Of a stretch of 64,000 bases of DNA, positions 5,520-54,965 are shown one piece after another (within the stretch, counting starts at the first letter, position 1; the number at the start of each line of letters is the position of its first letter). Below the pieces are notes generated by a model that saw only the letters and a program-made list of their open reading frames with translations, was not told the DNA's origin and ran no database searches. Both the position numbers and the translations under genes were made by a program. Source of the DNA: Trypanosoma brucei (Eukaryota); contig CM000207.1 in NCBI GenBank assembly GCA_000002445.1, forward strand, positions 1,824,001 to 1,888,000. The letters run 5' to 3'.

Positions 5520-8507
5520 ATGGCTAGTGCCCCCCGCCTTGGTCGCAAGGGAGGGAAAATTACTGCCTCACCCATTATCCCTACGCATGCGCTTACGCCT
5601 GGAAGTTCCACGTCGCCAGTTTCGCTTCACACACCCGGTGAGGGTACCACGATTATTGGCGACCCCAACGCTGCTCATCCTTTCGGCTCCGATATGCTCA
5701 CTGTTACGAAGAAACAAACCTCCGCGGAGGCTAATGTTCTTCAATTTGACGTGGGTGCAATCCAATTACTGGGAAAGGGTGTTGTTGTTGGAAGGGCAAA
5801 ACAGGCTCGGACACGGACGTACCAACCGCAATCCGATGCTACGGAGGTAAGACAGCGGTTGCATGGAGTTTTCTCAACGCGGCGAAGCAAGGTTCCGCAT
5901 CGCGCCGCGTCTGCAGGATTGGACGCACTTCAAGAGAGCGAAGTCGTTGCCACGCGAAAGTCGCAAGATACGTTATCACTTGTGGCTGCTTTGCTGTCTG
6001 CTGATCGAATGGCGAACATTCTCGTTGTTGTCTCCAAATACTACGAGCTGAGTCACGTCAGGTCGAGTGTTGAGGCCATTTTACGAGAAGAGGGAGAAGA
6101 TACTCAAAGTGTTGGTGTACTTTTTGGGCAAACTTTCGAGGGTAGCAAATCTACTCGCGCGTGGGTGATGACCGCGGATATGGCCCTCCTCTACATGACA
6201 CAATTGGGGAGTCCCGCTCCCTTTACGCATGTAGTTGTTCCTTGTTGCGTCGACACAACCTCGTCACTATCATGCTTTCTCAAGATGCTTGGTGGGTGGA
6301 TGATGAGTAACACACCTCGCTCCCAGTCCGTGCGGCTTGTTGTCACAACGGACTGCAGCAGCGATGGTCATGTTGCTAGGACAATTGGTGTACCGAGAGT
6401 CAAGATTCTGGATGACAAAGTAATCCGCCTGCACGAATTCTCGTACAATGAGGTGTGCGCTCTACTTGGAAAGCAAACCATGGAAATGGATAAGGATGCC
6501 GCGGGGAAATTCCCCAGCCCGCCGAAGCGACTTGTTGACTACACCGCGGATGTTGCCGCTGAGCTTGTGCGTTATGTTGTTACTCACACCCCTACGGCAC
6601 AGATCTTTTCTATATTTACCGCGGATGTTCGTGAAGTACTTACCGCCCTGCAGGGGGCCAAAATTGAGGATTGCACCGTGTACTCTACGCTGAAAAGCGC
6701 TGCTGACAAGGTTGAAACGAAACATCGTGTGCACGTCATAAATCATGTGAGTCATGCCTTGGATACCGAAAATGAATTCACAATGGTGCTAGACATGGGG
6801 ACCATACGGCGTTCATCTGTACAACACAAGTCGGAGAGTTTCATAGCGGCCAGCACTACAGAATGGGAATCCAAAGCTGAGCAGGCCGAACGCAAGTCTA
6901 TTCTTGGCGAAAACACCACTTGTTGCTACTTTGCCCTCTTTCAGGATGATGTCGGTGCCTCTTTCCAAGACGAAGCCCAGTTCCTTCCGGACATATTCAA
7001 TGTGGAGAACGCCTTCGTGCAATGCGCACGACTGAACCTTTCGGTATGTGAGGTGGGTCGCTTGTTACCCTCCGTTCCACGTGATGTTGTTGATCAAGTG
7101 ATGCAGAAGGTCGCAGAAAAATGTATGATTTCGACTCCGGACAGTCTTGACATCACGTTTCTTGGTGAAATAAAGTCACGACTGCCGGTTGAGATAGACG
7201 TTGCGTATTTGATAATGGGTGGTTGCAGCCTGGGGCTCGGAGAGGCAACACTTGTGGTTAGTGCAGTGATTGCGCTGCCCTTCCGATCTACTGCACCTCC
7301 TACCTACACCGTGAACCGTTGGACTGAGGCTACTCAGGAAAGTCGGAAGAGATGTGCTGGCGATATTGCATTATCTAGTGACCTTCTCGCTGATGCGTTC
7401 GTGTTTTTGGAGTGGCTTAGGCTCCGTACTACCGGTGCAGCGACAGCTACCTTCCTTGAGGCGTTTCTTGTGCAGGAATTCAAGTTTGAAAAAATAGAAG
7501 GATTGATGAACCACATGAGAGATCAGTTGATGAACTACGCGTTTTTGGATCGCCTGGATGACGTGGACACCGTAAATAAGGTTGCAGAATCCTTGAGGGA
7601 GAATGCATCGACGATGCTCATGTTGTTGTCTATGGCTCTCTCTCGTCGTGCGGCGTTTATTCGTGATGCGGGCCACATAAACGAGAAGGATCGTCACGCC
7701 TCCATGGTATTTGTGCGTACTTCTAAGCAGCTAGTGGTTCATCCATTTATCCCTTCAGGTGCCAGATGGGAGACAGGCGGAATCGTGATCCCTGTGATTC
7801 TGAAGAACAGTACCACAATTCTGGGGGGAATGTTTTCCCTTGTGGACACTTCACTTTTCTTTGCATCTCTGCTACTACTTTACCCACAAATTGAATATTC
7901 CAGGCCGGTGACAACCGAAAGGGGCCGCGTAGTGTACTTCGGCGTTGCGTGCAACTGGCAAATGAAGCGTTTCGTTGTTTCTATTGATGATGCAACACAA
8001 ATTCTTGATTTCAGGGAGAACATCAACACAGCAATAGGGTGCATGCGGGCGCTGCGTATGCTCCCCCACCCCATTTCAAAGACTAGGTTTGCCATAGCGC
8101 TGAAGGAACACGACCGCTTCTTTGACATGGAAAGACTTCACAGAGAAACACAGCGCCGACTCCACAGTCTCGCCGCTGCTCTGAACGTACAGGAACACCA
8201 AGGTAGTTTTGAAACGTTCGCAAAGCATTACACCGCGCCGAAGGAAATAATTCCGTTCAATGATGTGGCGGCAACGGATGTATTGTTGCTTCGTCGCTTT
8301 GCCGACGGCACGCTATGGGACGAACAGCGGCCTTCGCCGCAAAGCGCACCGGCAATTGGGTCAAGTCCCCAAAAATCAGCAGTATTAACTCCCTTCGATA
8401 CCGCTATCCCTGCACCGTACGACGATGACGACGATGACGTGCAAATCATCCAAAACTCCTACTTTATGCTGCATGGACCACTCATTGAGGATGATGACGA
8501 TGATTAA
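5520..8507 (+). CDS. hypothetical protein (about 995 aa) with a poly-Asp C-terminus. The alternative ATG at 5505 is in frame.
   Basis: A long uninterrupted + ORF of non-repetitive composition. The C-terminal 'DDDDDDVQIIQNSYFMLHGPLIEDDDDD' is a hydrophobic V-x-I-I core flanked by acidic runs. Confidence 0.6.
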   Translation: MASAPRLGRKGGKITASPIIPTHALTPGSSTSPVSLHTPGEGTTIIGDPNAAHPFGSDMLTVTKKQTSAEANVLQFDVGAIQLLGKGVVVGRAKQARTRTYQPQSDATEVRQRLHGVFSTRRSKVPHRAASAGLDALQESEVVATRKSQDTLSLVAALLSADRMANILVVVSKYYELSHVRSSVEAILREEGEDTQSVGVLFGQTFEGSKSTRAWVMTADMALLYMTQLGSPAPFTHVVVPCCVDTTSSLSCFLKMLGGWMMSNTPRSQSVRLVVTTDCSSDGHVARTIGVPRVKILDDKVIRLHEFSYNEVCALLGKQTMEMDKDAAGKFPSPPKRLVDYTADVAAELVRYVVTHTPTAQIFSIFTADVREVLTALQGAKIEDCTVYSTLKSAADKVETKHRVHVINHVSHALDTENEFTMVLDMGTIRRSSVQHKSESFIAASTTEWESKAEQAERKSILGENTTCCYFALFQDDVGASFQDEAQFLPDIFNVENAFVQCARLNLSVCEVGRLLPSVPRDVVDQVMQKVAEKCMISTPDSLDITFLGEIKSRLPVEIDVAYLIMGGCSLGLGEATLVVSAVIALPFRSTAPPTYTVNRWTEATQESRKRCAGDIALSSDLLADAFVFLEWLRLRTTGAATATFLEAFLVQEFKFEKIEGLMNHMRDQLMNYAFLDRLDDVDTVNKVAESLRENASTMLMLLSMALSRRAAFIRDAGHINEKDRHASMVFVRTSKQLVVHPFIPSGARWETGGIVIPVILKNSTTILGGMFSLVDTSLFFASLLLLYPQIEYSRPVTTERGRVVYFGVACNWQMKRFVVSIDDATQILDFRENINTAIGCMRALRMLPHPISKTRFAIALKEHDRFFDMERLHRETQRRLHSLAAALNVQEHQGSFETFAKHYTAPKEIIPFNDVAATDVLLLRRFADGTLWDEQRPSPQSAPAIGSSPQKSAVLTPFDTAIPAPYDDDDDDVQIIQNSYFMLHGPLIEDDDDD

Positions 8508-27279: not shown

Positions 27280-28221
<942 letters not shown>

Positions 28222-31200
28222 CACGGAGATCAACCGGCATTCGTAGACAAGAAAAATGTGGTAAGTTTCATTTTTTTTTTGTTTTGTTTTGCCAGATGGT
28301 GAACTGATGGGTCTGCCTAATCCGAATAAAAAAAAGGGGAAATATTACCACAGATAAAATATGTAAAACTGAAAGGCGCAACTCCTCACTTCCTTATGGA
28401 TGGTAGAGAGAAACTCCCTCAATGGTGCAACCAGAGGAGGAGGGAAACCACGGAGGAATGCGGGAGACAAATGGTTTAGAGTACGTGGTGTCAATAACCA
28501 TGCAGTGAAAAGTAGTAATACTGTGGTCCTTGTGCTGTTTAATTTCTACATATATTTATACTCATTTATATGCTGATACACATATATTTGTATTTATACA
28601 TCTGTACATATATATATATATATATCTATCTGTGTATCTTCGCCACTCTTTCCTCCGTTAGTGTTTGCGTATGATTGAGTGAATATATATATATATATAT
28701 ATTTGTAAAGAAAGATTATCAGATTTGGCGTGTAAAGGCAAATTTCAGTGGTGAGGTGACGGCACACACGATTTCCATACCATCTGCGGGATATTTCTAC
28801 AGCTGTTTAGGCAGGCACACATATAAACCTGCTTAAATGTGTGAAGTGTATTCAGTGATGGGCTAACAATTCTTTCCTTTTTTTATTCTTTTTTTTTGTT
28901 TTTGAAGTAAAAAAAGTTTCCCCCTCCCTTCGATGTCCCCCCTTCCTTTTCTGGCTTTTTTTTCTTCTTTTCTTTTCTTTCCTTCCTTCCATTGTTTAGT
29001 AAACTGAGGTGGTTATTTAATTGATATGAAGAGAAAAAACAAAACAAACAAACAAAATCCGGAGGAGGGAAAGGGATGGAGGGGGAAAATAAAAAGAAAA
29101 AAAAGACGGAGTGAAGGAAAGTCCCACACGCTCACGCCTGAGAACCTGCACAGGTTTATCTGTATTCAATGCTTTTTTATCTTTATCTTTATCTTTATCT
29201 TTTATCTTTTTTTTTTTTGAGGATGAAGGGCTTTTTTTTTCAGTTGTTTTCTTTTTTCCTGTTGGGCGTATATTTGTGTTCGACTCATTTTCTCCCTTTT
29301 TGTTTTTTTTCTTTCTTTCTTTAGAAGCAGAGCGTAAGAGAGATGATTTTTCTTTTTGTTGTTCACAGTGTATGCATGTGTGTTTGTGTTGTTTTTTTTT
29401 TTTTTTGTAGGAACGAAACAACTGGTAAATTATCCAGCAATCTAAACAAAAAGCACAAAAAGTATATGAAATAAACGTCTATATCAATAGAAACGGAGGG
29501 GATATATTTCAAAATAAAAAGAAAAAAAGAAATTGAGGAAAGTTTCGAGAGAGTATGGAGACAAATATTGGAAGGAAGGAAGGAAGGAAGGAGCACACAC
29601 ACACAAAAAAAAAAATACCATCAAAAAAACAACAAAGAGGTATTCGGAAAAATTAAGAAAAGGAAAAGAAAAAGGAACATGTTTGATTCGTGTCTTATCT
29701 AAAGGGTTTAAGGGGGGGGAAGTAACATGAGGCAAACACAAGAAATTTAATATAATAACATGTAATGACACCATATGAAAAGGACATTTCACAAAAGCAA
29801 CTGCGAGTTGTGGTGTACGGGTGGTAATGACACAAGAGAGAAGTTATGGTGAAAACATATGAGAGAATAATCATATATATATATATATATGTATTCGTGA
29901 AAATATCTCCGATGATGTCTTGCTTTATTCCTCTCACTTACACGCTTACTCATTTCTTCTGCGTATTTCCTTCAGCGTTATTATATCTGTTTTATATTTG
30001 TTCCTTCTGAATTGATAAATGAATCAATGAGTGCTATGGCGCTGTGACACAAAGGAAATTATGGAATAAACCTGACGGAAAGGAAAGGAGGATGGGGGAA
30101 CAAATTGATGGAATTGCGTAACTTACGCAGTGGCGTTGCTGTACGCTTTTTTTTTGAAATTATGTTCGTTATATATATATATATATGTTTTTCCGTTTCT
30201 GCAGCTATGCTAAAAGTTTTTATTATTGTTTTTGTTCTTTACTGTGACGTTCGTTACTATTTTATTCTTCTCTCCTATTCTCACAACTACATGTTCGGTT
30301 TGTTGGTATCATTGTGCGGAAGTTTCTTCTTTTTTTTTTATTTGATGTGTCATCTTCCTTTTTCTGTTTTTTTCTTCGGTCCAATAATTTAGAACTACGG
30401 AGGCGTTTGTTGTAATGCAACGAAATAAAATGAGAAAATAACCGAAGAAAAGAGAGAAAAAAAATGATATATATGTATACACTGGGTGCAAAAGGTTGTA
30501 AATTAGAGTGCTTGCCGCATGAAAGTGTTTGTTTGTTTATATATATTTATTTATATATATACTTTCAAAAAAAAAAAACAATGGATGAGTTTTTATATTC
30601 CAGCCCATGTTTACACACGGGTTTGGGGTGGATGGTGGTATACTTAAGGGAGTTTGATATGCGAGGAATATTCCTGTCGCTAGTTATGAGGACATGTGCG
30701 ATATTTTTCCTGTTGTTGTTGTTGTTGTTGTTTTCCCTTCTTTTTTTTTTCATTTGTTCCCTCCATCTCTTCTTCATCTTTTCTTTTCTTTTCTCATTTC
30801 TTTCCTTCTTCTACTTCTTCAACTCTTTCATAATTCTGCTTTTTGATCTGTTTTTCTTTTTTTTTTTGTTTTGGAAAGAGTCCACTGTGCGTGAAGAAAA
30901 AAAAATTCTCCTTTTTGTCGAAATTGCTTCTCTTTTTTCTTTTTCTTTTTTCTTTTTTCATATTTTATTGTTATCATTATTATTATTGTTGTTGTTGTTT
31001 TCATTAATTTACCGTAGTTTCTTTCTATTATTCCTTCCCTCTTGTAGGGTTGGCTGCTTGGTTTGTGTTTTCTTTTATCTTATTTTATTTTTACTTTAAT
31101 TTTCACAAAATAAAACAAAAAGTGAAAAAAGAGGAAAAAAAAAAGAACAGAAAAAAAAACAAAGATAATAGAATCGAGTGCGAGTCAGGGAACACATACA

Positions 31201-31755
31201 AAAAAAAATCATGTAGAATGAACAACACGGAGGTTAATTGAAAAAGAAAAATAAATGGAAACGGAAAAAGAAAGAAAACGAATGTTAATGATTGTAAATA
31301 TGATTAAAGGCAGAAACAGATGGAGAAGAGAGGAAAGAAAAGAAATGAGAAAAGAAAAGAAGAAAGAAATGAAGGAAAGAATAGAAGGAAAGAATAAGTG
31401 TATTATGTGTTGGATAAGAGGATTTTTAGAGAAGGAAGATGAAAGGATTAAGTTTTTGTTTTGGTTTGTTTTGTTTTGTATATGTGTGTTAAACAATTGA
31501 ACGGGGAAAGCGAGGGATGTGAGTACGCTGACAAATTGACGAAATTGTTTCTTTTTCTTTTTCTTTTTTTGTTTACCTTTTTTTTTTTGCAGTTTCCTCT
31601 TTGTTGCAACAGTACCCCATCTCCCCAATACATTAGCGTACACAATCTGTCACCCCACAAATGAGGAGATTTGCATTATTTGAAGGGGTTTGCCTTCTCA
31701 TGCTCTTCCCTTTCATTTTGTTTGTTCCTTTCTTTTGCTTGTCTTTTCTTATTAT

Positions 31756-31791
31756 TGTGTGTATGTGTGTATGTGTGTGTGTGTGTGTGTT
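31756..31791. repeat. (GT)n microsatellite
   Basis: The run reads gtgtgtatgtgtgtatgtgtgtgtgtgtgtgtgt. Confidence 0.9.
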
Positions 31792-32711
31792 TTGTTTGCT
31801 TCCGTCCCGTCTGTTGGTTTCTGCATTTTTGCGGTATATAAATATATAAGTAAATATATCTAAAAATATACGTGATGTTGGTGATGGTGATGGTAGTGAT
31901 AATGACTCTTGTTTTCATGCACGTGCGCATGCCTGTGTATATGTTTGCCTGAGCGCACTGAAGAAAAAAATAAGGAAGGGTGAAACTACAAGAAAAAAAA
32001 AGATTGAAAAAGGAAAAAAAAAGAATGGAAATAGCAGGTATTATTTCCTCTTTTCTTTTCACTCCATTTATCATCTTGTTCTTAGTTTCACATGCTACTC
32101 CTTTTCTACATATAATGACTACGGTAACCGCGGTGGTGAAAACAACTGCTTGCTTTAATGAGTCAACAACTATGCCAATTTTCATCACAAAGGTATCAGA
32201 TAGAAATGATGAAGAGGATATTGTGGAATCTCCTTGCGTTTCCGCACTGCATTATGTGTTTATCACGATAACATGTCTGTTTGCGTTTCTTCTTTTTTTT
32301 TTTTCCTTTTCATTACTCCTCACTTCCCTCATTCGTTCCTTCTACATATATTTGTTCTTCACTTTTTCACTGTATTTGTCCTCATCGTTCACGAAGAGAA
32401 GAAAAGAAAAAAAAACAACAACAAGTATCCTCACTGCTGTACTCCCCTCTTTCCTCCGTCTATGCGATGCACAAGAAAAAGAATAAAGGATGTGTAACAT
32501 TAATAATGTTACACACTAAGTTATTCTCCTTCGTGCGCAGTATACCTTGTGATACCACTTGAGGTATATCTTGATATCTTTCTTCTTTCTTTTCTTTTCC
32601 TTTTCGTTGTGTTGTGATCTTTTGGTGCTTAACCGATTCTTATCGTAGGGGAAAGGCAGCGATAGTCAAACAGCAGAGAACTAAGAAGGAAGAAAAAAAA
32701 AGAGCAACAAA

Positions 32712-38860: not shown

Positions 38861-41458
38861 ATGGGATCTAGTGATGATGAGTGGCAAAATCCCCCAGTGT
38901 TCCCGGGTGGAAGGCGTCCTGGTGCTGGTGGTAGCGGTGAGAATGCCATGTTAGCTGCGCGGAGACGTGCAATGCAAGAAAGGCGGGAGGCGGATTCTTC
39001 ACAACGTGGTGGTTTGGCATCAGGACCGGTTGTACAACCAAGTGGTAAGGCTGTTGAGAGCTTGCCGTGGGATGATTCATCGGATAGTGTAAAACAACAA
39101 CCTCAGCGGCCACAAATGCAGGTGCAGGTGCCTCCCCCTCAGGCTGCCAGTGCTGTGACGGAGGAAATGCTTGAGACTCTACGACGTGATCTGGAGGCTA
39201 AGAAAAAAGTTTTGTCAGCGGCAAAGGAAAAGGAGGAGGCTTTGAGGGAGCAATGGCGGGCACAAAAGGCCCAGCGAATGGCTCAGATTGCCCAACTAGA
39301 CGAGAAGATTCGCCGCCAACAGGATGCCGTAGAGGATGTAAAGGCAGTAGCTGAGAGGGAGCTCCGTGATGCAGAAGCGGCACAGCAGCAGCGCCTAAGA
39401 GAAGAAAAGGAAAGAATGGAGATGGAGATTCGCGAGCAGTATGAGCCCCTAATTGCCGAGCAGCGGGCGCAACTAAAGGAACTTCAGGCGAAGGAGACAA
39501 AACTTCAAGCCGAACTCAACGCCGGCGATAATGCCAAGGATCTCGTGAACCGGTGCATAAGTAGTGCACTCGCCACTATATTGCAACGTGTGGAAGGAAT
39601 GTTTGCTGAGGACACATCCACGATGAACGAGTGGGAAAATGATGTTCAACGTCTTGTGCGAAACGAGGTTCGTTCCTCTTTTGCTGTAGCCAATGACACC
39701 GAGGCACAAAGGGAGCGGGAGGAATACCAGCGTTATTTTGAGGATACCCTTGATTTTTGGAGGCGGGCCGAAGCGGAACAACGGGAACGTGTGCTCAAAA
39801 TGGATGAGCAGCTACTTCTTGACCTTCAATCGATGGTGCACGATGACCTCGATCGACTCCAGCGGGAGGAATTCAACATGGAGGAATTATATGTACAATC
39901 CCGTGAGACTTGGGCGGAACAGCACCAGCAATTGTTACAACGCGAGTTGAACGCGGCCATGTCCCGTCGCGCAGCCGAATTTGAAGAGCAGCGTGCCGCA
40001 CGCCACGAGCTGCATCTTGAGCGGATGAAAGTTGCAGAAGAGAGACACCATGAAACGGTTCAAAAACTCCGTTGGTTCCATGAGAAACAAATGACGCTGC
40101 TGCGAGAGCAATACGCGAAGGAGCAACGTCTTGAGGAGCAGCGTATGATGTTAGCCTCTGCGGCACAGGAAGACGTCGCACGTGCGACAGAGGAATTTGG
40201 CCACGTTGCTGACGCAGTGGAGGGGTTATTGCAGTTGCTTAAAGACTATCGTCAGTCTGTTGACGAGGGCCGCGCATCCATCGACGAGGAGAGGCGCCGT
40301 ACGCTTGAAGCTCGGGAGGCGACACTTAATGCCTTGCAGGACATCGTTTCAAAGCAAACTGTTGCAACAAATGATGAATACACATCTCTCTCAACAACAC
40401 TGAACAAATTAGAAACTGTGCGTGCCATGGTGGAGCAACACCTTGAGGACGAACGCATATGGCTCGGTAAACAGGAAGCTTCCTTTGCACGCAGCAAAGC
40501 GGAGTGGGAGCGTGAGTACCGGCGCTGGAAACAGATGGTGGAAATGGAGAAAAGTCAGGTGCTTGAGCGTTATAACGGCGTACTAAGTGAGTTACACCAA
40601 GTTGCAACGCTTTTATCGGAGGAGGAACGTGATGTGCAGACGGAACAGACCTCCATTTCTTCGTGGCTGCGCCATGTTAGCGAGGAAGCAGGTGCCGAGG
40701 TGCGGCAACTACAAAAGCGGGAAGAGGACCTTAAGGAAAGGCAGATCAAAATGCAGGCTCTCGGAGACGAAGTACAGACCAAAGGTTTTCAACTAAACGA
40801 ACAATGGGAGAAACTCCGATTAGAACGACAACAGTTAGTAAACGAAGAGAATGTGCTCAGGGAGGATGAGGCGAAGTTGCGCCAAACGAGTCATTATCTT
40901 CGAATGCTTCAGGCACAAATTGAGGGCACTAAGATCGAATCGGTGGCGGCAAAAGATCGCGTACGTTCCCTTCAGTGCGAACTTTTGGCATCCAGGACGG
41001 CCATCGACCAAATGAGACAACCAAAAAAGTGTGACTTTCGTCATCGCGCCGAACCAATAGAAGTGCCTATTCGCAGACAGGCGCAAAACATTGAAAATGA
41101 CTCAACCCGGTTACCACTTCGTGTTTTGAACGAATTGCGGGAGTTACTCGACACCGAGGAGACATGCCGCGATCAAGGCCCAGTTGTAACCTTCTCAACA
41201 AATAGTAAGCTGCAAAAAGTTAGCCATGAAGCATTCTCCCCGCCACCAAGAGAGGAGGGTGGTAACACACAAAACAGGAGCAGACATCGTGAGGAGCGAC
41301 GTTCACGTACCGATAAACGAAAAACAAAGTACACAGATCCAGCTGACATCTCCCGTGATACGTTTTCTCAAACATGTAACTCATCAAACAACTTTACAAC
41401 TCTTATAGGATTTTCAGACTCAGAAGCTTTGCATGAATCAGCGACGCAATCACCCTAA
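38861..41458 (+). CDS. hypothetical coiled-coil protein (865 aa), E/R/Q-rich
   Basis: Long heptad-like stretches (EQRAQLKELQAKETKLQAELN, ERRRTLEAREATLNALQDIV and others). The N-terminus is Gly/Pro-rich and the C-terminus basic. Confidence 0.6.
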   Translation: MGSSDDEWQNPPVFPGGRRPGAGGSGENAMLAARRRAMQERREADSSQRGGLASGPVVQPSGKAVESLPWDDSSDSVKQQPQRPQMQVQVPPPQAASAVTEEMLETLRRDLEAKKKVLSAAKEKEEALREQWRAQKAQRMAQIAQLDEKIRRQQDAVEDVKAVAERELRDAEAAQQQRLREEKERMEMEIREQYEPLIAEQRAQLKELQAKETKLQAELNAGDNAKDLVNRCISSALATILQRVEGMFAEDTSTMNEWENDVQRLVRNEVRSSFAVANDTEAQREREEYQRYFEDTLDFWRRAEAEQRERVLKMDEQLLLDLQSMVHDDLDRLQREEFNMEELYVQSRETWAEQHQQLLQRELNAAMSRRAAEFEEQRAARHELHLERMKVAEERHHETVQKLRWFHEKQMTLLREQYAKEQRLEEQRMMLASAAQEDVARATEEFGHVADAVEGLLQLLKDYRQSVDEGRASIDEERRRTLEAREATLNALQDIVSKQTVATNDEYTSLSTTLNKLETVRAMVEQHLEDERIWLGKQEASFARSKAEWEREYRRWKQMVEMEKSQVLERYNGVLSELHQVATLLSEEERDVQTEQTSISSWLRHVSEEAGAEVRQLQKREEDLKERQIKMQALGDEVQTKGFQLNEQWEKLRLERQQLVNEENVLREDEAKLRQTSHYLRMLQAQIEGTKIESVAAKDRVRSLQCELLASRTAIDQMRQPKKCDFRHRAEPIEVPIRRQAQNIENDSTRLPLRVLNELRELLDTEETCRDQGPVVTFSTNSKLQKVSHEAFSPPPREEGGNTQNRSRHREERRSRTDKRKTKYTDPADISRDTFSQTCNSSNNFTTLIGFSDSEALHESATQSP

Positions 41459-41772
41459 TAGTCTGGAAAAGGGGGCAAATACAAGAATTTGAACGTAAAA
41501 TTTAAAGTACCAGTTAGCAAACACCTATATCTTTGACAACCATAGACGACATCATTACTAAGGAGCACGAACAGCACTTCCTTTAATTATTTATTAAAAC
41601 AAAAAAATACGCCCTACACTTGCCTTGAAAAAAATAAGCGAAAATTAATTACTCTGTCCTCTTATTTTTGCAAACGCATAAAGAATTAAAGACAAAAAGA
41701 TTCAAGAGGCACAAGAAGTGGATATCACTGTTTATGATTGTGCTGGTTTTGTTTCGTAAGCGCGTATACAAT

Positions 41773-41832
41773 ATTACTGATGTATAACACGATATTCAGG
41801 TAAAGATTATCAGGAGTAACTGACTGAGATAA
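41773..41832 (+). ncRNA. second candidate box C/D-like snoRNA in the repeat unit (copy 1). It recurs at +662 and +1324. The C box recurs at 43764 in the truncated fourth copy.
   Basis: C-like box TGATGT at 41778..41783 and D box CTGA at 41824..41827 ('taactgactgag'). It is short for a snoRNA, so boundaries are uncertain. Confidence 0.3.
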
Positions 41833-41966
41833 CATCATGCACCACTCTGACCAATACTTCTCCCCTACTGTGGTTATGGAATATGTTTCCCTCCATGATG
41901 CCATGACAAGACTATAAGAGCACAGTTTGAACTGACTTCACAAGACGGACGAGAACGTCGCTGCAA

Positions 41967-42045
41967 TATTCTGATGATTGGAAGGGCATATGGGTGAATA
42001 TATGTGACAGTGAAGCACAATTTACACGGATTCACCCTGACTTAT
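41967..42045 (+). ncRNA. candidate box C/D snoRNA (repeat copy 1)
   Basis: Canonical C box TGATGA at 41972..41977 and D box CTGA at 42037..42040 are 60 nt apart. Internal 'tgaag/gtgacag' are possible C'/D'-like elements. The motif positions are conserved in the repeat. Confidence 0.4.
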
Positions 42046-42628
42046 ATTTTAATGCCGGTGTTATCCGCCAGTGTTGTGCCAGATATATCAGCTGTTTCCT
42101 CTATGATGTTAAAAGAAGTTTTGTAGTAGGGTAAAATCTGACATCCGACCATGAAGGTACGAATTTAATGTGCTTTCATGTGCTTCTGCTATTGTGGTTG
42201 CACAGAGGCGCTATGTCTGAGAATTTCTATCTTTCTCCACTTCTTTTACTTACTTTCCTCCTTCACTGCTTTACTCCCACACTATTTTTTAATCGTTGTT
42301 ACAACTGCTTGGTTCGAGTGCCCTCAGGTATTGTGGTGTTTGTTGCTTATCGCCATCACAGGTTCAAGAGGCACAAGAAGTGGATATCACTGTTTATGAT
42401 TGTGCTGGTTTTGTTTCGTAAGCGCGTATACAATATTACTGATGTATAACACGATATTCAGGTAAAGATTATCAGGAGTAACTGACTGAGATAACATCAT
42501 GCACCACTCTGACCAATACTTCTCCCCTACTGTGGTTATGGAATATGTTTCCCTCCATGATGCCATGACAAGACTATAAAAGCACAGTTTGAACTGACTT
42601 CACAAGACGGACGAGAACGTCGCTGCAA

Positions 42629-42707
42629 TATTCTGATGATTGGAAGGGCATATGGGTGAATATATGTGACAGTGAAGCACAATTTACACGGATTCACCCT
42701 GACTTAT
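42629..42707 (+). ncRNA. candidate box C/D snoRNA (repeat copy 2)
   Basis: Same element as copy 1, shifted by 662 bp (C box 42634..42639, D box 42699..42702). Confidence 0.4.
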
Positions 42708-43290
42708 ATTTTAATGCCGGTGTTATCCGCCAGTGTTGTGCCAGATATATCAGCTGTTTCCTCTATGATGTTAAAAGAAGTTTTGTAGTAGGGTAAAATC
42801 TGACATCCGACCATGAAGGTACGAATTTAATGTGCTTTCATGTGCTTCTGCTATTGTGGTTGCACAGAGGCGCTATGTCTGAGAATTTCTATCTTTCTCC
42901 ACTTCTTTTACTTACTTTCCTCCTTCACTGCTTTACTCCCACACTATTTTTTAATCGTTGTTACAACTGCTTGGTTCGAGTGCCCTCAGGTATTGTGGTG
43001 TTTGTTGCTTATCGCCATCACAGGTTCAAGAGGCACAAGAAGTGGATATCACTGTTTATGATTGTGCTGGTTTTGTTTCGTAAGCGTGTATACAATATTA
43101 CTGATGTATAACACGATATTCAGGTAAAGATTATCAGGAGTAACTGACTGAGATAACATCATGCACCACTCTGACCAATACTTTTCCCCTACTGTGGTTG
43201 TGGAATATGTTTCCCTCCATGATGCCATGACAAGACTATAAAAGCACAGTTTGAACTGACTTCACAAGACGGACGAGAACGTCGCTGCAA

Positions 43291-43369
43291 TATTCTGATG
43301 ATTGGAAGGGCATATGGGTGAATATATGTGACAGTGAAGCACAATTTACACGGATTCACCCTGACTTAT
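43291..43369 (+). ncRNA. candidate box C/D snoRNA (repeat copy 3)
   Basis: Same element, shifted by 1324 bp (C box 43296..43301). Confidence 0.4.
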
Positions 43370-43907
43370 ATTTTAATGCCGGTGTTATCCGCCAGTGTTG
43401 TGCCAGATATATCAGCTGTTTCCTCTATGATGTTAAAAGAAGTTTTGTAGTAGGGTAAAATCTGACATCCGACCATGAAGGTACGAATTTAATGTGCTTT
43501 CATGTGCTTCTGCTATTGTGGTTGCACAGAGGCGCTATGTCTGAGAATTTCTATCTTTCTCCACTTCTTTTACTTACTTTCCTCCTTCACTGCTTTACTC
43601 CCACACTATTTTTTAATCGTTGTTACAACTGCTTGGTTCGAGTGCCCTCAGGTATTGTGGTGTTTGTGGCTTATCGCCATCACAGGTTCAAGAGGCACAA
43701 GAAGTAGATATCACTGTTTATGATTGTGCTGGTTTTGTTTCGTAAGCGCGTATACAATATTACTGATGTATAACACGATATTCAGGTAAAGATTAATAAT
43801 GAGTAAATGTATTAATTTTTCTTTACTATTATTTTAACTAATTAGCTGACGGCTGTGTGTTTTGAAGTCTGTGTGTTGTACTTGGTATGTATTGTTATTG
43901 TTTGTGT

Positions 43908-43950
43908 ATTCTTTTTTTCTTTTTCTTTTTTTCATTTTGTGAGGGAAAGC
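43908..43950 (+). promoter_or_regulatory. polypyrimidine tract upstream of the PLP-enzyme gene (candidate trans-splice signal)
   Basis: ttattgtttgtgtattctttttttctttttctttttttcattttgt immediately precedes the ATG at 43992. The tracker translates it as a spurious N-terminal extension. Confidence 0.45.
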
Positions 43951-43991
43951 TTTGCCTTATTTTTGTTTTGCTTTACTTTATCGAATCGAAA

Positions 43992-45224
43992 ATGTCTAAG
44001 CAGCAGCATTTGGTTTCTGATTTTGAAGATGGCTCTGGTTCATGGTCTAATATCGAACAGGGGTTTGATACTCTTCTTGTTCATGGGGGTGTGAAGCCGG
44101 ATCCAGTGACAGGAGCTGTGCTTACTCCCATTTATCAAAGCACGACGTTTGTTCAAGAGTCAATTGAACTTTATCAATCCAGGGGATTTAGTTATACCCG
44201 GAGTGCAAATCCTACCGTGAAGGCATTAGAGGAAAAGCTGTGCGCGGTGGAGAAGGGTGATTACGCCACGGTATACAGCACAGGTATGGCCGCCACTACA
44301 ACTGTTGTGTCTGCTCTGATGAATGCTGGTGATCATGCTATTGTCACTGACTGCAGTTATGGTGGAACGAATCGTGCGTGCCGTGTGTTTTTTACTCGAT
44401 TTGGTATGGAGTTCACATTTGTCGATATGCGTGATCTGAGCAATGTGGAGAAGGCCATTAAGTCGAACACAAAATTAGTAATCTCTGAAACCCCTGCCAA
44501 TCCTACGTTAACTCTCACTGACATCAGAGCACTGTCAAAGATATGCAAGGCAAAAGGTCTTCTTCATGTTTGTGACAACACTTTTGCAACGGCTTTCATC
44601 ATGCGGCCAATCGACCTTGGTGCTGATGTCAGCCTCATCAGCACAACAAAGTTTGTTGACGGCCATAACATGACGGTTGGTGGTGCACTCGTGACGAAGC
44701 GGAAGGATCTTGATGAGAAACTCCGACTGACGCAGAATATTCTCGGAAATGCCATGTCTCCGTTTGTGGCATTCTTACAACTACAGACAATGAAAACTAT
44801 GTCTCTACGTGTCACTAAACAAAGTGCCAACGCACAGAAGGTGGCGGAATTCCTTGAGACACACCCTATTGTTGATAAGGTGTCCTACCCCGGCCTCAAA
44901 AGCTTTCCGCAGAAGGAACTCGCTGATCGTCAACATTCCAACGGCAATCATGGCGGTATGTTGTGGTTTGAATTGAAGGGTGGCACGGCGGCGGGTCGCC
45001 GTCTGATGGATACCGTCCAACGCCCCTGGTCACTTTGTGAGAATCTTGGAGCAACGGAGAGTATTATCACATGCCCATCTGTCATGACACACGCCAATAT
45101 GACAACTGAGGACCGATTGAAGGTTGGAATTACGGATGGGTTCATTCGTGTTTCCTGCGGTATTGAAGACGCTGAGGATCTCGTTGCCGCTCTTAAGAAA
45201 GCGCTGGATGCCATGTGCCATTAG
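43992..45224 (+). CDS. Cys/Met-metabolism PLP-dependent enzyme (cystathionine gamma-lyase / methionine gamma-lyase family)
   Basis: '...GFSYTRSANPTVKALEEKLCAVEKG...' and '...ISTTKFVDGHNMTVGGALV...' (PLP lysine in the S-x-T-K context). There is full-length collinearity with the trans-sulfuration enzyme family. The tracker start at 43887 is an F/L-rich translation of the polyY tract. Confidence 0.85.
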   Translation: MSKQQHLVSDFEDGSGSWSNIEQGFDTLLVHGGVKPDPVTGAVLTPIYQSTTFVQESIELYQSRGFSYTRSANPTVKALEEKLCAVEKGDYATVYSTGMAATTTVVSALMNAGDHAIVTDCSYGGTNRACRVFFTRFGMEFTFVDMRDLSNVEKAIKSNTKLVISETPANPTLTLTDIRALSKICKAKGLLHVCDNTFATAFIMRPIDLGADVSLISTTKFVDGHNMTVGGALVTKRKDLDEKLRLTQNILGNAMSPFVAFLQLQTMKTMSLRVTKQSANAQKVAEFLETHPIVDKVSYPGLKSFPQKELADRQHSNGNHGGMLWFELKGGTAAGRRLMDTVQRPWSLCENLGATESIITCPSVMTHANMTTEDRLKVGITDGFIRVSCGIEDAEDLVAALKKALDAMCH

Positions 45225-50375: not shown

Positions 50376-53300
50376 ATGTATTAATGAATCATTCGCCACA
50401 GAGTGTCTTGAGAAAATTGCTTTTTCCTCTCCCTTTGTTTTGATTTTCATTATCTCGTTAAATGTTCTGTGTTGTCGTTAGTGTTGTATTGCCAGGTTGC
50501 GACGTGTTTGATGGGTCTTAATCCCATGTGGGATGATGCTGGGAAAAAGGAAGGGGAGGAAATTATGATTAATACAATGATGAGGTGTATTGAGAGGGCA
50601 GTTGTCGGTGGATGCAATCATTGAGGTGGGGTTAGAGTTGAATGAAGTGAAGTGAAGTGAAAAAATGAAATGAAATGAAAGAAAAGTAAAGAATTCGATA
50701 CGGAATGGGGGGGAAGTAAACTGGATTGCGATACCTTCTTCTTGTTCTATAAATCCTTCTTTATTGCGCTCATCCTCCAACAACATTGTAAAGTTACGAT
50801 TAAACCTTTACTTTATTCGGTTGAACCCCGCCCCCCCCCTTCGTGGCCGACACTGTTTTATTCCTACAATTAGGGTTCGTTAATGGTTAAGCGAATGAAG
50901 AAGGAGTGAAGAAGGGAAAATAATGAGTTGAAGGTTGGGAAAATTAGCTGCTTTACGGTTTCCACCGCATTCGATACCTTCTTTCTTTCCTTGTTTATTT
51001 CCTTTTCCTCGCCTCCACCGCTACATTTTCTCTGCCTTTCGTTGTTGTTGTTGTTTCATTAGTTTGTTTGTGACACTCATTCATCCCAAACGGTATGATT
51101 ACATAAATTCGCGCGTTGACATGCGTGAGTTAGGCGTTTTTAGGTGATTTGTTTTTCGCATTTGCGGTGCTTCAGCTCAATCGACTCTCTTTCCCATTGT
51201 TCAGACTTTTGTTTTTATGCGGTGTTGTGATTTGCTCGCCTGTTTTTTGTTTGGTTTCCTGATTGCTGTCAACTCCACACGTTTTTTGTATGTTCTGCCG
51301 CATTCAGAGAGCAATATATATATATATATATATTTCGTGAGTATGCGGAATGAAAAAAAAAAAAGAATATACCATGCATTCACTGTCGCTCATTTTCCAG
51401 TTAAAAAAAACCGGTGGAAGGAATTAAACAGAGTAGGGAAACAAAGAAACAAACAAGCAAACACAACAGGAAAATAAAAGGAAAGAAAAAAAGACGGAAT
51501 ACACAATGAAAGTTATTGGAAGAGAGGGGCATGTGGGAGCGCAGTTGCTGTCTCTTTTTTTGTTTGTTTCTGCTATCATCATCATCACCACCATTTCATG
51601 TTTCTTCACGGACAATCGTATATATTTATAAATATTTATATATTTATACGTATATTTCTATATTTTGTTTATTTATTTGTGTTTTTTAGTTACACTCTTT
51701 TTGTGCGTGTGCGTGTATGCCCCATGTGAATTTGTTTCTATTCACTCTTTTCCTTACATGTGTTAACAAACAAGCATTGGGGCAAAATGATGCATTGTTG
51801 AATGGAAGGTAAGAAGATTCAAAGGACAACGGAACAGAAAGGAAAATTAAAAAAAAATGAACGAAAACAAACTGAATGCATCGAAAGATGGGAAACAAAC
51901 AAAAACAGGAACTACAACAGCAACAGGAACAAAAAAAAAGAAAGAAAAAGAAAACATCAAAATGGAAAGAAGTTTGCTGCTTTTCATTATTCCTTTCCTC
52001 ATTTCCCTCCCTCTTCCTCCTTTTTTTTTTTCGTTCCTCCTGTTGCTGTTGATCTCGCTGCGATTTATTCATTTTTCCCCTTTCCCAATATTTCCCCTCT
52101 GCGGTGTTTACTCCTTTCTTCTTTTTCTTTTTTTTTCTTCATATAAATATATTTTATTATATTTTATAGATAAATAATGTTAACATTAACAGTTAATACT
52201 CTTCCCATCCTTTATTGGCTGTTTTTTTTTAACCCTTCCATTATTTCCATATGTTTGTGTTTGTTGCTTTACTACGGTTAAAATTTTTGTTCATGTTATT
52301 TTATTACAAGTCTTAAACTCAACTTATTCTATCTCCTTTTCTTTTTTTCTTCTTTCTTTTTTCTCTTTCGCTATAATATAATTAACTTTTACTACTGCAA
52401 TATGTTGGTTGAAATTAGTTTCAGTCCCACTCGCACACGCTCACAAATCAATCATAAACTGAAGTGAAAGGGAGTAATAAAACGGAAGGTATAAAATAGA
52501 TCAATTCACAAGGAAAAGAAACTAAAATTATTTAAAATAACTTCCACATATTCATACATACATACACACACACACACAAAAAAGAAAAATAATTGAGAAC
52601 AAAAAAAATTCATTAAAGGGAGAAACGTCTTTACATCGGGTTAAAACCCCTCCCCAAGAAAATAAATAAAATCAAAGCAAAAAAAAACACTGTGTGAGTC
52701 GGTAACTCGACATTAAACGGGTTTGTTTATTTTTTCTTTGATTTTTCTTTTTTACTTTTTTTTGTTCCCCTTATTCCACCTTCAAAAAAAAAAAAACTTT
52801 CTCTCTTTTTTTTTTCCTCTTTACCACACAGGCTTCTGCGAGCAAGTAGAAACACCATTTGCTCTTTAAAAAAAAAAAAAAAATACAAAAAAAAAGAGAG
52901 AAAAGAGAAACAAAATAAAAAGCAACACATCAAAGGAAGCAAAAAAAAAAAGTACGGCGAGTCAAAACGTCAAATACAAAAAACAAAAGGTGCAACTAAA
53001 CTTTAAAAAGATTTTTTTTTAAAAAAAAAAGAAGGAAAAAAAACAAGAAGTCAGTCGATTCCACTCATTTCAAGGAGACAAAGAACGAAAAGACAACAAG
53101 AAAGAAAAAAGTAGTGCAGAAGGATTGAACCGCGGGGCCCGCCTACAAGGAGGACGAAGCAGGGAAAGTAAAACAAAAGGGATTTTTTTTAAAAAAAAGA
53201 AAAAAAAGAAAAAAAAGTTTATTTATATATTTGTTCATTTATACCAGTGGCCGAATTATACAAGTCAAAGCAAAGCAAAGCAAAGCAACAAGTAACAATA

Positions 53301-53528
53301 ACAATAGCAAAACACGCCCGCACAAAGTGCAAAGGAGGACGTTCAATACATTATTTTTGGTCACTGGGACTGGAAAATTGGATAAAGGAGGCTGAATCAG
53401 AGGACTTGCAGCGCGACTCCACCAAAAAATAAAAATTAAAAAAAATTAAAAAAAAATCAACACGCATACATTATAAAGCAAATCAAACAGGAAAAAAGTT
53501 TTTTAAAAAAAAAACAAAGCAAAGCGAA

Positions 53529-53530
<2 letters not shown>

Positions 53531-53569
<39 letters not shown>

Positions 53570-53577
53570 CACAAACT
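53531..53577. repeat. (TA)n microsatellite, about 23 units
   Basis: An uninterrupted 'atatat...' run inside the long A-rich intergenic region. Confidence 0.95.
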
Positions 53578-54965
53578 TTACCTTGCGCAGATACACATAC
53601 GGATCAGGGAGTAGGCGAGGCGGAGGCCGGGAAATATTTCATCATTTAGTGGCAGCGGCTGGCAACAAAAAAGGGAACGGAAAGTTGCGAAGGAAACTGC
53701 GACTGGTAGGCGAAGTCGCCAGCGGCCAGCAAATAACGGAAAGTATCGAAGCAGCAGCGGCAGCGGAGGTGGCGGCGGTGGCGGTCGTGGAAAAAACGAA
53801 AAAAAAAAGAGCACTGAAAATCCTTCACAAGGAGGGGAATAAACAAATAAATAAATAAAAGCAAAAGCATTTATTTATTTATTACCAAATCAACACCAAC
53901 AACAAAGAAGAACAAAGCGGTAACGGGAATTTGCAGGGGTTTACGGGACTTTTTCTTCTTTTTCTTCTTTTTTTTTCTTGATCTGTTCATTACCGTGCTA
54001 CCACCATTAATAATATTATTATCATCACTATTTATTATCGTTGTCGTTACTAACTCTGACTCTTGTTGGTTTTTTTTAAAATAATACAAAACAACAATAA
54101 CAACAACAACAGGAAGAAGAAACGACAACAAATCAAACAGGAAAAAGTAAGAAAAAAAGAAGAGAAAGCACACAAAAGGAAAGAAAAGTGAAGAGAGAAT
54201 AAGAAGGAGAAAGCGGTGGTGAAGAAAAGGGGGAACGTGTTGTTTACATCTCCCCAGACATATAAATTATTTAATATATATACATATATATATTATATTT
54301 ATATTTATATATCTGTATTTGTCTTTACGCATTTGCGTATTCCACTCATTTCCCTGCCGGACAGAAGGGTTACGAGGAAAAAAAAAGAGAAAAAGAGAAG
54401 ATAGAATATCAATACAAATTCATCAGTACCCAGTAGTTTTTTAACAAACTAAGAAAAGAAAAGAAAAGAAAAAAAAGGGACAACCTTATTCACGGACAAC
54501 AAACGGGGAAAAGAAGTAGCGATAAAAAAAAGAAAAGAGGTGCGAGAGTGAAAGAGGAAGAGAAGGAGAGTGGTTACATCCGATCAAAGGATTCAAATAG
54601 TATAAAAAAAATAAAATAGCAATAATAGTAAATAAATATATTAAAAAGAAGAGCACAATTAGAAAATACTGCTGAGGTAGAAGAAGGGGAAGGAAAAGGA
54701 GAAAACAACAGGGAACTTAACGGGGAGGAGAAAATATTACTTATATATTGCCTCTTTTGTTGTTTATTTCCGTGACGCCATCCTGTCAGCGTGACGTGTA
54801 AAGGGAGTTACTAGTTTTATTTTGTAGTTTGTTTTTTAATAGAGCAGGGCGGGGGGAAGTGATTAGAGGGAAAACAAACAAACAAATAAATAAAAAGAGA
54901 AGAAATCCTTTATAACTCAGCAGGTCCGTGGCAACAGCAGATAACTGCTGCTGCTGCTACTACTG

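What the first reader, a model, noticed from the sequence alone, without database searches (positions are those of the whole stretch)
41699..43795. 662-bp tandem array carrying repeated C/D box pairs, a probable unannotated snoRNA gene cluster
Between two protein-coding genes lies an array of about 3.2 near-identical 662-bp units. Each unit contains at least one canonical C box (TGATGA) placed 60 nt upstream of a D box (CTGA), plus further TGATG..CTGA pairs. The array has no credible coding potential: the tracker's repeated 93-aa and 73-aa ORFs are Leu/Phe-rich and repeat-derived. In trypanosomatids, snoRNAs are encoded as tandemly reiterated clusters of mixed C/D and single-hairpin H/ACA-like RNAs inside Pol II polycistrons. 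This architecture fits that exactly. The specific guide targets, the number of RNAs per unit, and whether the cluster matches a catalogued one all remain undetermined.
Basis: partly seen in the sequence, partly recalled or inferred. Interest (0 to 1): 0.8.

Follow-up and report, generated by a model that had tools for sequence, protein, structure and literature searches.

The report
Known T. brucei snoRNA cluster TB9Cs3

Summary
The array is real: it has a 662-bp period and runs from 41698 to 43795, with three full units plus a 112-bp partial fourth. The units differ at only 2-6 positions. It is a snoRNA gene cluster, but a known one. Rfam places TB9Cs3H1 and TB9Cs3H2 in every unit, well above the gathering scores. 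Eleven published TB9Cs3 oligonucleotides match the window exactly. The adjacent gene is 100% identical to a T. b. brucei TREU927 protein.

Each unit encodes five RNAs on the + strand, in the order C1, C2, H1, C3, H2. That makes 15 genes. I derived each RNA's target from the sequence, using kinetoplastid rDNA pulled from metagenomes. All five predictions coincide with published, experimentally mapped modifications: SSU Gm1676, SSU Am2096, LSU-beta pseudouridine 1280, LSU-beta Um1435 and LSU-alpha pseudouridine 939.

The same cluster lies at the syntenic position in T. congolense, T. grayi and, in part, L. major. Boxes, guides and pockets are invariant there, while spacers drift.

The cluster is catalogued, so it is not a new discovery. 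The one 'canonical' TGATGA-60 nt-CTGA pair it cited is spurious, because it runs from the D box of C2 into the H1 hairpin.

One small loose end remains: an invariant 15-nt block in C1 has no assigned target.

The parts
41698..43795 (+). Whole tandem array: 3 full 662-bp units plus a 112-bp partial unit. It starts inside the 3' part of an H2 copy and ends inside the 5' part of a C1 copy.
41698..41719 (+). Left edge of the array: a truncated 3' fragment of H2 (AGATTCAAGAGGCACAAGAAGT). It has no hairpin 5' half and is presumably non-functional.
   Evidence: Sequence compared with H2
41770..41856 (+). TB9Cs3C1, copy 1 (box C/D; ends approximate). C box TGATGT at 41778; D'/C' region CTGACTGAGA at 41820-41829; D box CTGA at 41847. 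The D guide CAUGCACCACU pairs with SSU GGUGG*UGCAUGG and gives Gm1676. Copies 2 and 3 lie at +662 and +1324 (42432-42518, 43094-43180).
   Evidence: weak Rfam snR55/Z10 match at 41774-41852
41788..41802 (+). Invariant block CGAUAUUCAGGUAAA inside C1. It is identical in four Trypanosoma species and has no assigned target.
41890..41980 (+). TB9Cs3C2, copy 1 (box C/D; ends approximate). C box TGATGC at 41896; D' CTGA at 41932; D CTGA at 41971. The D' guide GCACAGUUUGA pairs with SSU UCAA*ACUGUGC and gives Am2096. Copies 2 and 3 lie at 42552-42642 and 43214-43304.
42013..42087 (+). TB9Cs3H1, copy 1 (single-hairpin H/ACA-like RNA with an AGA box). Its pocket pairs with LSU-beta GAUAACUGGC-U-UGUGG and gives pseudouridine 1280. 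Copies 2 and 3 lie at 42675-42749 and 43337-43411.
   Evidence: Rfam RF01555, 77.7 bits against a gathering score of 45; published probe matches exactly at 42067-42086
42099..42223 (+). TB9Cs3C3, copy 1 (125-nt box C/D). C box TGATGT at 42104; D' CTGA at 42138; D CTGA at 42217. The D' guide AGUAGGGUAAAAU pairs with LSU-beta GUUUU*ACCCUACU and gives Um1435. Copies 2 and 3 lie at 42761-42885 and 43423-43547.
   Evidence: The published '1-20 nt' sense primer and the antisense primer define both ends
42224..42314 (+). Pyrimidine-rich spacer (78% C+T) between C3 and H2. Its sequence is not conserved in T. congolense. It may be a processing or trans-splicing signal (inference only).
42315..42381 (+). 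TB9Cs3H2, copy 1 (single-hairpin H/ACA-like RNA with an AGA box). Its pocket pairs with LSU-alpha GGUGAAC-U-A-UGCCUGA and gives pseudouridine 939. Copies 2 and 3 lie at 42977-43043 and 43639-43705.
   Evidence: Rfam RF01556, 81.5-82.1 bits against a gathering score of 50; published primers
43756..43795 (+). Right edge of the array: a truncated 5' fragment of a fourth C1 copy. It has the C box and the conserved block but no D' or D box, and is presumably non-functional.

Best explanation
The array is the Trypanosoma brucei chromosome-9 snoRNA cluster TB9Cs3. Each 662-bp unit carries five small nucleolar RNA genes on the + strand, in the order C1, C2, H1, C3, H2. There are three intact copies of each, which makes 15 genes.

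Inferred from established trypanosomatid biology: RNA polymerase II transcribes the array as part of the surrounding + strand polycistron, and the individual RNAs are then cut out of the precursor.

Shown here by sequence and matched to published modification maps: the three box C/D RNAs base-pair with rRNA through 11-13-nt antisense elements that end next to a D or D' box. They direct 2'-O-methylation of the nucleotide paired to the fifth position upstream of the box. C1 gives SSU Gm1676, C2 gives SSU Am2096 and C3 gives LSU-beta Um1435. The two single-hairpin, AGA-box H/ACA-like RNAs hold a target uridine in a bipartite pocket 14 nt upstream of the AGA box. H1 gives LSU-beta pseudouridine 1280, in the peptidyl-transferase-centre sequence GAUAACUGGC-psi-UGUGG. 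H2 gives LSU-alpha pseudouridine 939.

From the literature, not tested here: RNAi against C3 and H2 also impairs LSU pre-rRNA processing, in particular the release of srRNA1. C3 additionally contacts ITS3 and srRNA1.
For: Rfam and published oligonucleotides:
- TB9Cs3H1 scores 77.7 bits against a gathering score of 45, and TB9Cs3H2 scores 81.5-82.1 bits against 50. Each occurs three times at a spacing of 662.
- Eleven published TB9Cs3 oligonucleotides match exactly.
- They include the '1-20 nt' and antisense primers that delimit C3, and the 81-101 nt biotin probe at the expected offset.
- The RNAi primer ATCTACTTCTTGTGCCTCTT matches only the variant in the last partial unit (43690-43709).

Source organism:
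- The downstream gene is 100% identical to 'cystathione gamma lyase, putative [T. brucei brucei TREU927]' on a 3,057,547-bp contig.

Guide and pocket tests:
- A position-aware scan against six kinetoplastid rDNA units finds conserved duplexes only for the C1 D guide (12 bp including 2 G-U), the C2 D' guide (11 bp) and the C3 D' guide (13 bp). All three end at offset 0-1 from the box.
- Anchored on published primers, the C3 site maps to LSU-beta 1435 in 9 of 10 loci.
- The H1 pocket site maps to exactly LSU-beta 1280 in all 6 loci checked.
- The H2 pocket site maps to about LSU-alpha 935.

Published mass-spectrometry and sequencing tables (PMC10662448 supplement):
- Gm1676 lies in GG(Um)G(Gm)U and is assigned to TB9Cs3C1.
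- Am2096 lies in CUCAUCA(Am)ACUG and is assigned to TB9Cs3C2. Its alternative number 2068 equals my anchor estimate of 2068-2075.
- Pseudouridine 939 lies in AAC-psi-AUG and is assigned to TB9Cs3H2.
- LSU-beta pseudouridine 1280 is assigned to TB9Cs3H1.
- PMC9283944 lists LSU-beta Um1435 under TB9Cs3C3.

Geometry, function and conservation:
- Both pockets start 14 nt before the AGA box.
- RNAi, northern blots and primer extension for C3 and H2 are reported in PMC6411936.
- The cluster is syntenic in T. congolense (695-bp unit, about 3.2 copies), T. grayi and, in part, L. major. Boxes, guides and pockets are invariant there, with a few compensatory stem changes.
- Five of the seven positions that vary between copies lie in spacers or at the array edge. 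The other two lie in C2 two nt upstream of the guide and in the H2 loop. None touches a box or a guide.
Against: Nothing contradicts this reading. The caveats are as follows.
- T. brucei's own rDNA was not available. Complementarity was tested on related kinetoplastid rDNAs from metagenomes and on short published rRNA fragments.
- The H2 site maps to about 935 rather than 939 by primer anchoring. Small indels or primer-label numbering would explain this.
- On their own, the H1 pocket match (9 bp) and the H2 pocket match (12 bp) are not above the shuffled-pocket maxima. Their weight comes from coinciding with the published sites.
- The published second target of H2, SSU pseudouridine 2116, could not be reproduced with the simple pocket.
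- The ends of C1 and C2 are approximate.
- Expression and transcription by Pol II were not tested here and rest on the literature.
Confidence: 0.97

Rival explanations
1. The array is a non-functional satellite, or a fragment of a retroelement, that happens to contain C/D-like motifs.
For: Short motifs such as TGATG and CTGA are common.
Against: Rfam covariance scores are 30 bits above the gathering scores. The array matches published snoRNA probes exactly. All five predicted targets coincide with mapped modifications. The gene blocks are conserved at a syntenic position across genera while the spacers diverge.
Confidence: 0.01
2. The repeated 93-aa and 73-aa ORFs encode real small proteins.
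For: ORFs at 42168-42449 and 42178-42399, and their copies, are open in every unit.
Against: They have no Pfam match. They run through the pyrimidine-rich spacer, the H2 gene and the start of C1. That spacer is not conserved in T. congolense, whereas the RNA genes are. The third copy of the 93-aa ORF is cut to 71 aa by a single substitution.
Confidence: 0.01
3. It is the known cluster, but it carries one further functional element that has not been assigned. The invariant C1 block CGAUAUUCAGGUAAA would pair with a target that is not in the current modification maps, such as a pre-rRNA spacer, an accessory pairing site or a non-rRNA substrate.
For: The block is identical in four Trypanosoma species, while the 15 nt directly upstream of D' vary. 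The modification tables I read assign only one Nm to C1.
Against: No complementarity above background was found in eight kinetoplastid rDNA units: the score was 14, against a shuffle mean of 13.6 and maximum of 16. No recognisable D'-like box follows the block. It could instead be needed for snoRNP folding or protein binding. Liang et al. 2005 could not be read and may already discuss it.
Confidence: 0.15

Closest known systems
T. brucei snoRNA cluster TB9Cs3 (credited to Liang et al. 2005 in PMC4855143; studied functionally by Chikne et al. 2019, PMC6411936)
   Same: It is the same locus. Eleven published oligonucleotides match exactly, the five RNAs and their targets are the same, and the chromosome-9 context in TREU927 fits.
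   Different: Nothing differs. Only the copy number (three full units in this window) could not be compared with the original description, because that paper is not held.
Rfam RF01555 (TB9Cs3H1) and RF01556 (TB9Cs3H2)
   Same: The matches are full length, at 77.7 and 81.5-82.1 bits. Orthologues in T. congolense, T. grayi, T. theileri and L. major also score above the gathering values.
   Different: None.
Yeast snR40 and snR55, and plant Z10 (box C/D guides for 18S Gm1271 and Um1269)
   Same: C1 targets the same universally conserved SSU sequence, GGU*GG*UGCAUGG. The best weak Rfam match for C1 is snR55/Z10. The yeast site numbers and guide names are from my own knowledge.
   Different: C1 scores only 25.1 bits against a gathering score of 50, so by score it is not a member of RF00472. 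In T. brucei a different snoRNA, TB10Cs3C2, guides the neighbouring Um1674. C1 also carries a conserved extra block that has no counterpart I know of.
Canonical two-hairpin eukaryotic H/ACA snoRNAs (such as yeast snR34, which I recall as guiding the homologous PTC pseudouridine)
   Same: They share the bipartite pocket, the target uridine 14 nt from the 3' box, and a conserved rRNA target site.
   Different: H1 and H2 are single hairpins of about 67-75 nt with an AGA box instead of ACA. This is the trypanosomatid 'H/ACA-like' form.

Membership tests
TB9Cs3 cluster of T. brucei (identity) | The sequence equals the published TB9Cs3C3, H1 and H2 primers and probes. | tested here: met
   11 of 11 oligonucleotides match exactly, in every unit where expected. 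The oligonucleotides come from PMC6411936 Table S1, the PMC4855143 supplement and PMC9841430 Table 1.
TB9Cs3 cluster of T. brucei (identity) | Located on T. brucei chromosome 9. | tested here: met
   The adjacent gene is 100% identical to a T. b. brucei TREU927 protein on a 3.06-Mb contig. The chromosome number itself is inferred from the cluster name and the contig size.
Rfam RF01555 / RF01556 | Covariance-model score at or above the gathering threshold. | tested here: met
   77.7 bits against 45, and 81.5-82.1 bits against 50, with three copies of each.
Box C/D methylation-guide snoRNA | A C box (RUGAUGA-like) near the 5' end and a D box (CUGA) near the 3' end. | tested here: met
   C1 has CUGAUGU...CUGA, C2 has AUGAUGC...CUGA and C3 has AUGAUGU...CUGA. 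The last position of each C box departs from the consensus. The boxes are invariant across species.
Box C/D methylation-guide snoRNA | An antisense element of at least 10 nt that ends next to D or D', with the modified nucleotide opposite the fifth position upstream of the box. | tested here: met
   Duplexes of 12, 11 and 13 bp lie at offset 0-1. The predicted nucleotides G, A and U equal the published Gm1676, Am2096 and Um1435.
Box C/D methylation-guide snoRNA | Stable small RNA bound to fibrillarin/NOP1, NOP56, NOP58 and SNU13. | not testable with these tools
   The literature reports northern blots and RNA-seq abundance for C1 and C3 and sucrose-gradient snoRNP fractionation for C3 (PMC6411936). 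Nothing was tested here.
Trypanosomatid single-hairpin H/ACA-like snoRNA | A single hairpin with an internal pocket and an AGA box about 3 nt from the 3' end. | tested here: met
   Shown by the Rfam structure alignments and RNAfold. The AGA box is invariant in four species, and some stem pairs show compensatory changes.
Trypanosomatid single-hairpin H/ACA-like snoRNA | Bipartite complementarity flanking a target uridine that lies 14-16 nt upstream of the box. | tested here: met
   H1 pairs 6+3 bp at LSU-beta U1280 and H2 pairs 5+7 bp at about LSU-alpha U935-939. Both pockets start 14 nt before the AGA box. The sites equal the published pseudouridines 1280 and 939. The pairing scores alone are not above the shuffle maxima.
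Rfam RF00472 (snR55/Z10) | Score at or above the gathering threshold of 50 bits. | tested here: not met
   C1 scores 25.1 bits, E = 0.32. It resembles this family in its target region only.

The most novel reading that the evidence does not exclude
The most novel reading my evidence does not exclude concerns the invariant 15-nt block CGAUAUUCAGGUAAA in TB9Cs3C1 (41788-41802 and its repeats). It would be a second functional antisense or accessory-pairing element, whose partner is missing from current modification maps. The partner could be a trypanosome-specific pre-rRNA spacer or a non-rRNA substrate.
Probability: 0.15. Interest if true: 0.3.

Novelty: already known. Interest (0 to 1): 0.08.

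Why it matters
The finding adds little that is new. The cluster has been in the literature since 2005 and is in Rfam. Two of its RNAs have been silenced and characterised, and all five of its modification sites have been mapped by sequencing and mass spectrometry. The result is useful in two ways. It shows that a sequence-only reader can recognise trypanosomatid snoRNA arrays. It also gives a worked example in which the guide targets were recovered independently from the sequence. The only open thread is the conserved, unassigned block in C1.

Tried and rejected
- TRF did not report the array, because its longest period is 500. The repeat finder did report it.
- Liang et al. 2005 (PMC1370750) is not held. 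The rDNA sequence supplement of PMC9841430 is not held either. I therefore used a metagenome scan for kinetoplastid rDNA instead.
- Exact look-ups of window proteins found nothing on record, including the TREU927 protein P0001. The window could therefore not be compared base by base with the reference.
- A naive 11-mer antisense scan was too noisy. Shuffles gave as many hits, and 90 of 200 shuffles had a segment shared by at least 10 loci. I replaced it with a position-aware test.
- No conserved rRNA target was found for three elements: the C1 D' guide, the C2 D guide and the C3 D guide. PMC6411936 reports only a 9-bp pairing to srRNA1 for the C3 D guide, with no methylation detected.
- The published second H2 target, SSU pseudouridine 2116, was not reproduced with the Rfam-structure pocket.
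- The bacterial promoter and terminator scan is irrelevant here and showed no enrichment.
- The T. theileri 'unit' of 1001 bp was rejected as evidence for array structure. It contains a run of Ns and a duplicated fragment of the downstream coding gene.
- Satellite, retroelement and coding readings were all rejected (see the rival explanations).
Full report
**Observation.** The array is real.
- The repeat finder reports direct repeats starting at 41698, 42360, 43022 and 43684, with an exact 662-bp spacing. That is three full units and a 112-bp partial fourth ending at 43795.
- The full units differ from each other at only 2-6 positions.
- TRF missed the array only because its maximum period is 500.
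- The repeated 93-aa and 73-aa ORFs exist and have no Pfam match.
- The array lies between an 865-aa coiled-coil protein gene (38861-41458) and a Cys/Met-metabolism PLP enzyme gene (43989-45224). Both are on the + strand.
- All 15 ORFs of at least 250 aa in the 64-kb window are on the + strand, as expected for one trypanosomatid polycistron.

**Identity.**
- A gathering-threshold Rfam scan of the whole window gives exactly six matches. TB9Cs3H1 (RF01555, 77.7 bits, gathering score 45) lies at 42014-42082, +662 and +1324. TB9Cs3H2 (RF01556, 81.5-82.1 bits, gathering score 50) lies at 42317-42378, +662 and +1324.
- TB9Cs3 is a named T. brucei cluster with members C1, C2, C3, H1 and H2 (PMC6411936; PMC9283944; credited to Liang et al. 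2005 in the PMC4855143 supplement).
- Eleven published oligonucleotides match the window exactly in every unit where expected. They are RNAi-construct primers, northern primers, the 81-101 nt biotin probe for C3, the H1 probe, and the C3 probe of PMC9841430.
- The '1-20 nt' sense primer and the antisense primer delimit TB9Cs3C3 as 42099-42223 (125 nt).
- One RNAi primer matches only the sequence variant of the last partial unit (43690-43709). This suggests it was designed on this same reference sequence.
- The downstream gene is 100% identical to 'cystathione gamma lyase, putative [Trypanosoma brucei brucei TREU927]' on a 3,057,547-bp contig.

**Anatomy of one unit (copy 1; add 662 or 1324 for copies 2 and 3).**

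| RNA | Coordinates | Features |
|---|---|---|
| C1 | about 41770-41856 | C box TGATGT at 41778; D'/C' region CTGACTGAGA at 41820; D box at 41847 |
| C2 | about 41890-41980 | C box TGATGC at 41896; D' at 41932; D at 41971 |
| H1 | 42013-42087 | single hairpin, AGA box |
| C3 | 42099-42223 | C box TGATGT at 42104; D' at 42138; D at 42217 |
| spacer | 42224-42314 | 78% pyrimidine |
| H2 | 42315-42381 | single hairpin, AGA box |

- About 445 of the 662 nt are RNA genes.
- The array starts with a 22-nt 3' fragment of H2 and ends with a 40-nt 5' fragment of C1. It therefore holds three intact copies of each of the five genes.
The TGATGA overlaps the D box of C2, and the CTGA lies inside the H1 hairpin.

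**Independent test of function.**
- T. brucei rDNA was not available. I scanned the metagenome collection with a published SSU primer and obtained 66 rDNA contigs.
- Many of these contigs carry the fragmented LSU that is typical of kinetoplastids, and they match the published T. brucei rRNA primers.
- The test was position-aware. For each CTGA I measured the best duplex ending 0-2 nt upstream of it, and compared this with all 662 positions of the unit treated as pseudo-boxes. Three guides stand out consistently in all six representative rDNAs:
  - The C1 D guide pairs with GGUGGUGCAUGG (12 bp, including 2 G-U).
  - The C2 D' guide pairs with UCAAACUGUGC (11 bp).
  - The C3 D' guide pairs with GUUUUACCCUACU (13 bp).
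- The fifth-nucleotide rule then predicts Gm in GGUGG*U, Am in UCAA*ACUG and Um in GUUUU*ACCC.
- Anchored on the published LSU-beta 1236 primer, the C3 site is position 1435 in 9 of 10 loci. The published and RNAi-verified site is Um1435.
- The mass-spectrometry tables of PMC10662448 list Gm1676 in GG(Um)G(Gm)U for TB9Cs3C1 and Am2096 (alternative number 2068) in CUCAUCA(Am)ACUG for TB9Cs3C2. My anchor estimate for the C2 site was 2068-2075.
- For the H/ACA-like RNAs, a pocket scan puts H2 on GGUGAAC-U-A-UGCCUGA at about LSU-alpha 935 in all five rDNAs. The published site is pseudouridine 939 in AAC-psi-AUG.
- The same scan puts H1 on GAUAACUGGC-U-UGUGG (top-ranked in four of the five rDNAs, second in the fifth). 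This is exactly LSU-beta 1280 by the primer anchor, and the published site is pseudouridine 1280.
- Both pockets begin 14 nt before the AGA box.
- The pocket scores alone are not above the shuffle maxima. The weight of the evidence comes from the coincidence with mapped sites.

**Conservation.**
- The gene order RFC subunit, 865-aa protein, gap, Cys/Met enzyme, thioredoxin, EF-hand protein is conserved in T. congolense, T. theileri, T. grayi and L. major.
- Rfam finds H1 and/or H2 in the gap in every one of these species.
- T. congolense has a 695-bp unit, also in about 3.2 copies. T. grayi has a 617-bp spacing between two C1 copies. L. major has H1 and the C3 guide, with no tandem repeat.
- Alignments show that the boxes and the rRNA-matching guides are invariant, while the other parts vary.
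- In the hairpins, the pocket strands and the AGA box are invariant, the loops vary, and a few stem pairs show compensatory changes.
- A whole-unit alignment of T. brucei and T. congolense shows no conserved block outside the five genes.
- Five of the seven positions that vary between the T. brucei copies lie in spacers or at the array edge. The other two lie in C2 two nt upstream of the guide and in the H2 loop. None touches a box or a guide.

**Mechanism.**
- Shown here: the gene content, the structure, the guide registers and their agreement with mapped modifications.
- Taken from the literature: expression, snoRNP sedimentation, loss of Um1435 and reduction of pseudouridine 939 on RNAi, and LSU pre-rRNA processing defects (srRNA1 release) on silencing C3 or H2 (PMC6411936). 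[quoted passage not shown]
- Inferred: the pyrimidine-rich spacer in each unit may serve that processing.

**Verdict.** The interest is low.

**Loose ends.**
- An invariant 15-nt block in C1 has no assigned target and no rRNA complement above background in the rDNAs available.
- I could not reproduce the published second H2 target, SSU pseudouridine 2116, from the simple pocket.

Noticed in passing
window 41788-41802 (also 42450-42464, 43112-43126, 43774-43788): An invariant block, CGAUAUUCAGGUAAA, lies inside TB9Cs3C1. It is identical in T. brucei, T. congolense, T. grayi and T. theileri, although the nucleotides directly upstream of D' vary. No modification is assigned to it, and it has no rRNA complement above background in eight kinetoplastid rDNAs.
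   Followed up: partly
window 43887-45224: The TREU927 protein on record for the downstream gene is 445 aa (P0001). It starts at 43887 with a Cys/Leu/Phe-rich 34-aa extension (MYCYCLCILFFFFFFSF...) that is read through the pyrimidine-rich intergenic tract. All but three of the roughly 40 closest homologues listed (74-85% identity; the named ones are trypanosomatid) are 408-414 aa and align from MSKQ (43989). The annotated start is therefore probably too far upstream.
   Followed up: partly
L067:929-3127 (T. congolense IL3000, CAEQ01002037.1): The orthologous array has a 695-bp unit and the same copy number of about 3.2. It lies in the same position upstream of the Cys/Met enzyme gene. Either the array structure predates the split between T. 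brucei and T. congolense, or both assemblies collapse the repeat in a similar way.
   Followed up: partly
L068:6636-7636 (T. theileri, NBCO01000004.1): The apparent 1001-bp repeat unit contains a run of 10 Ns and a duplicated fragment of the downstream Cys/Met enzyme coding sequence. The 194-aa gene called at 7000-7584 lies within it. This looks like a scaffolding or assembly artefact rather than a real larger unit.
   Followed up: partly
L069:5036-8001 (L. major Friedlin chr 35 record FR796431.1): The syntenic gap in Leishmania holds H1 (6548-6614) and the C3 guide with its box (6993). No H2 scored above the Rfam gathering value, the C1 and C2 guide motifs are absent, and there is no tandem repeat. 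The cluster composition therefore differs between the genera.
   Followed up: partly
literature numbering; compare SSU sites around L044:3115 and 3517: Two SSU numbering systems offset by 28 nt coexist in the T. brucei papers (1648 and 1676; 2068 and 2096). The primer labelled 'SSU 1660-1678' in PMC6411936 follows the lower system. This can mislead site comparisons.
   Followed up: yes
window 42315-42381 (H2) against SSU ...ACGUCCC-U-GCCAUUUG: The literature assigns a second, bloodstream-form hypermodified target (SSU pseudouridine 2116) to TB9Cs3H2. With the Rfam-structure pocket I find only 1 bp on the 5' side of that site and none on the 3' side. That assignment is therefore not explained by the canonical pocket.
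   Followed up: partly
window 28000-32000 and 52000-54000: There are two AT-rich stretches (GC 0.32-0.36, against about 0.46 elsewhere). They contain no ORF of at least 250 aa. The first holds a degenerate 44-nt pyrimidine-rich tandem repeat at 30737-30828. They are probably long intergenic or UTR regions and were not examined.
   Followed up: no
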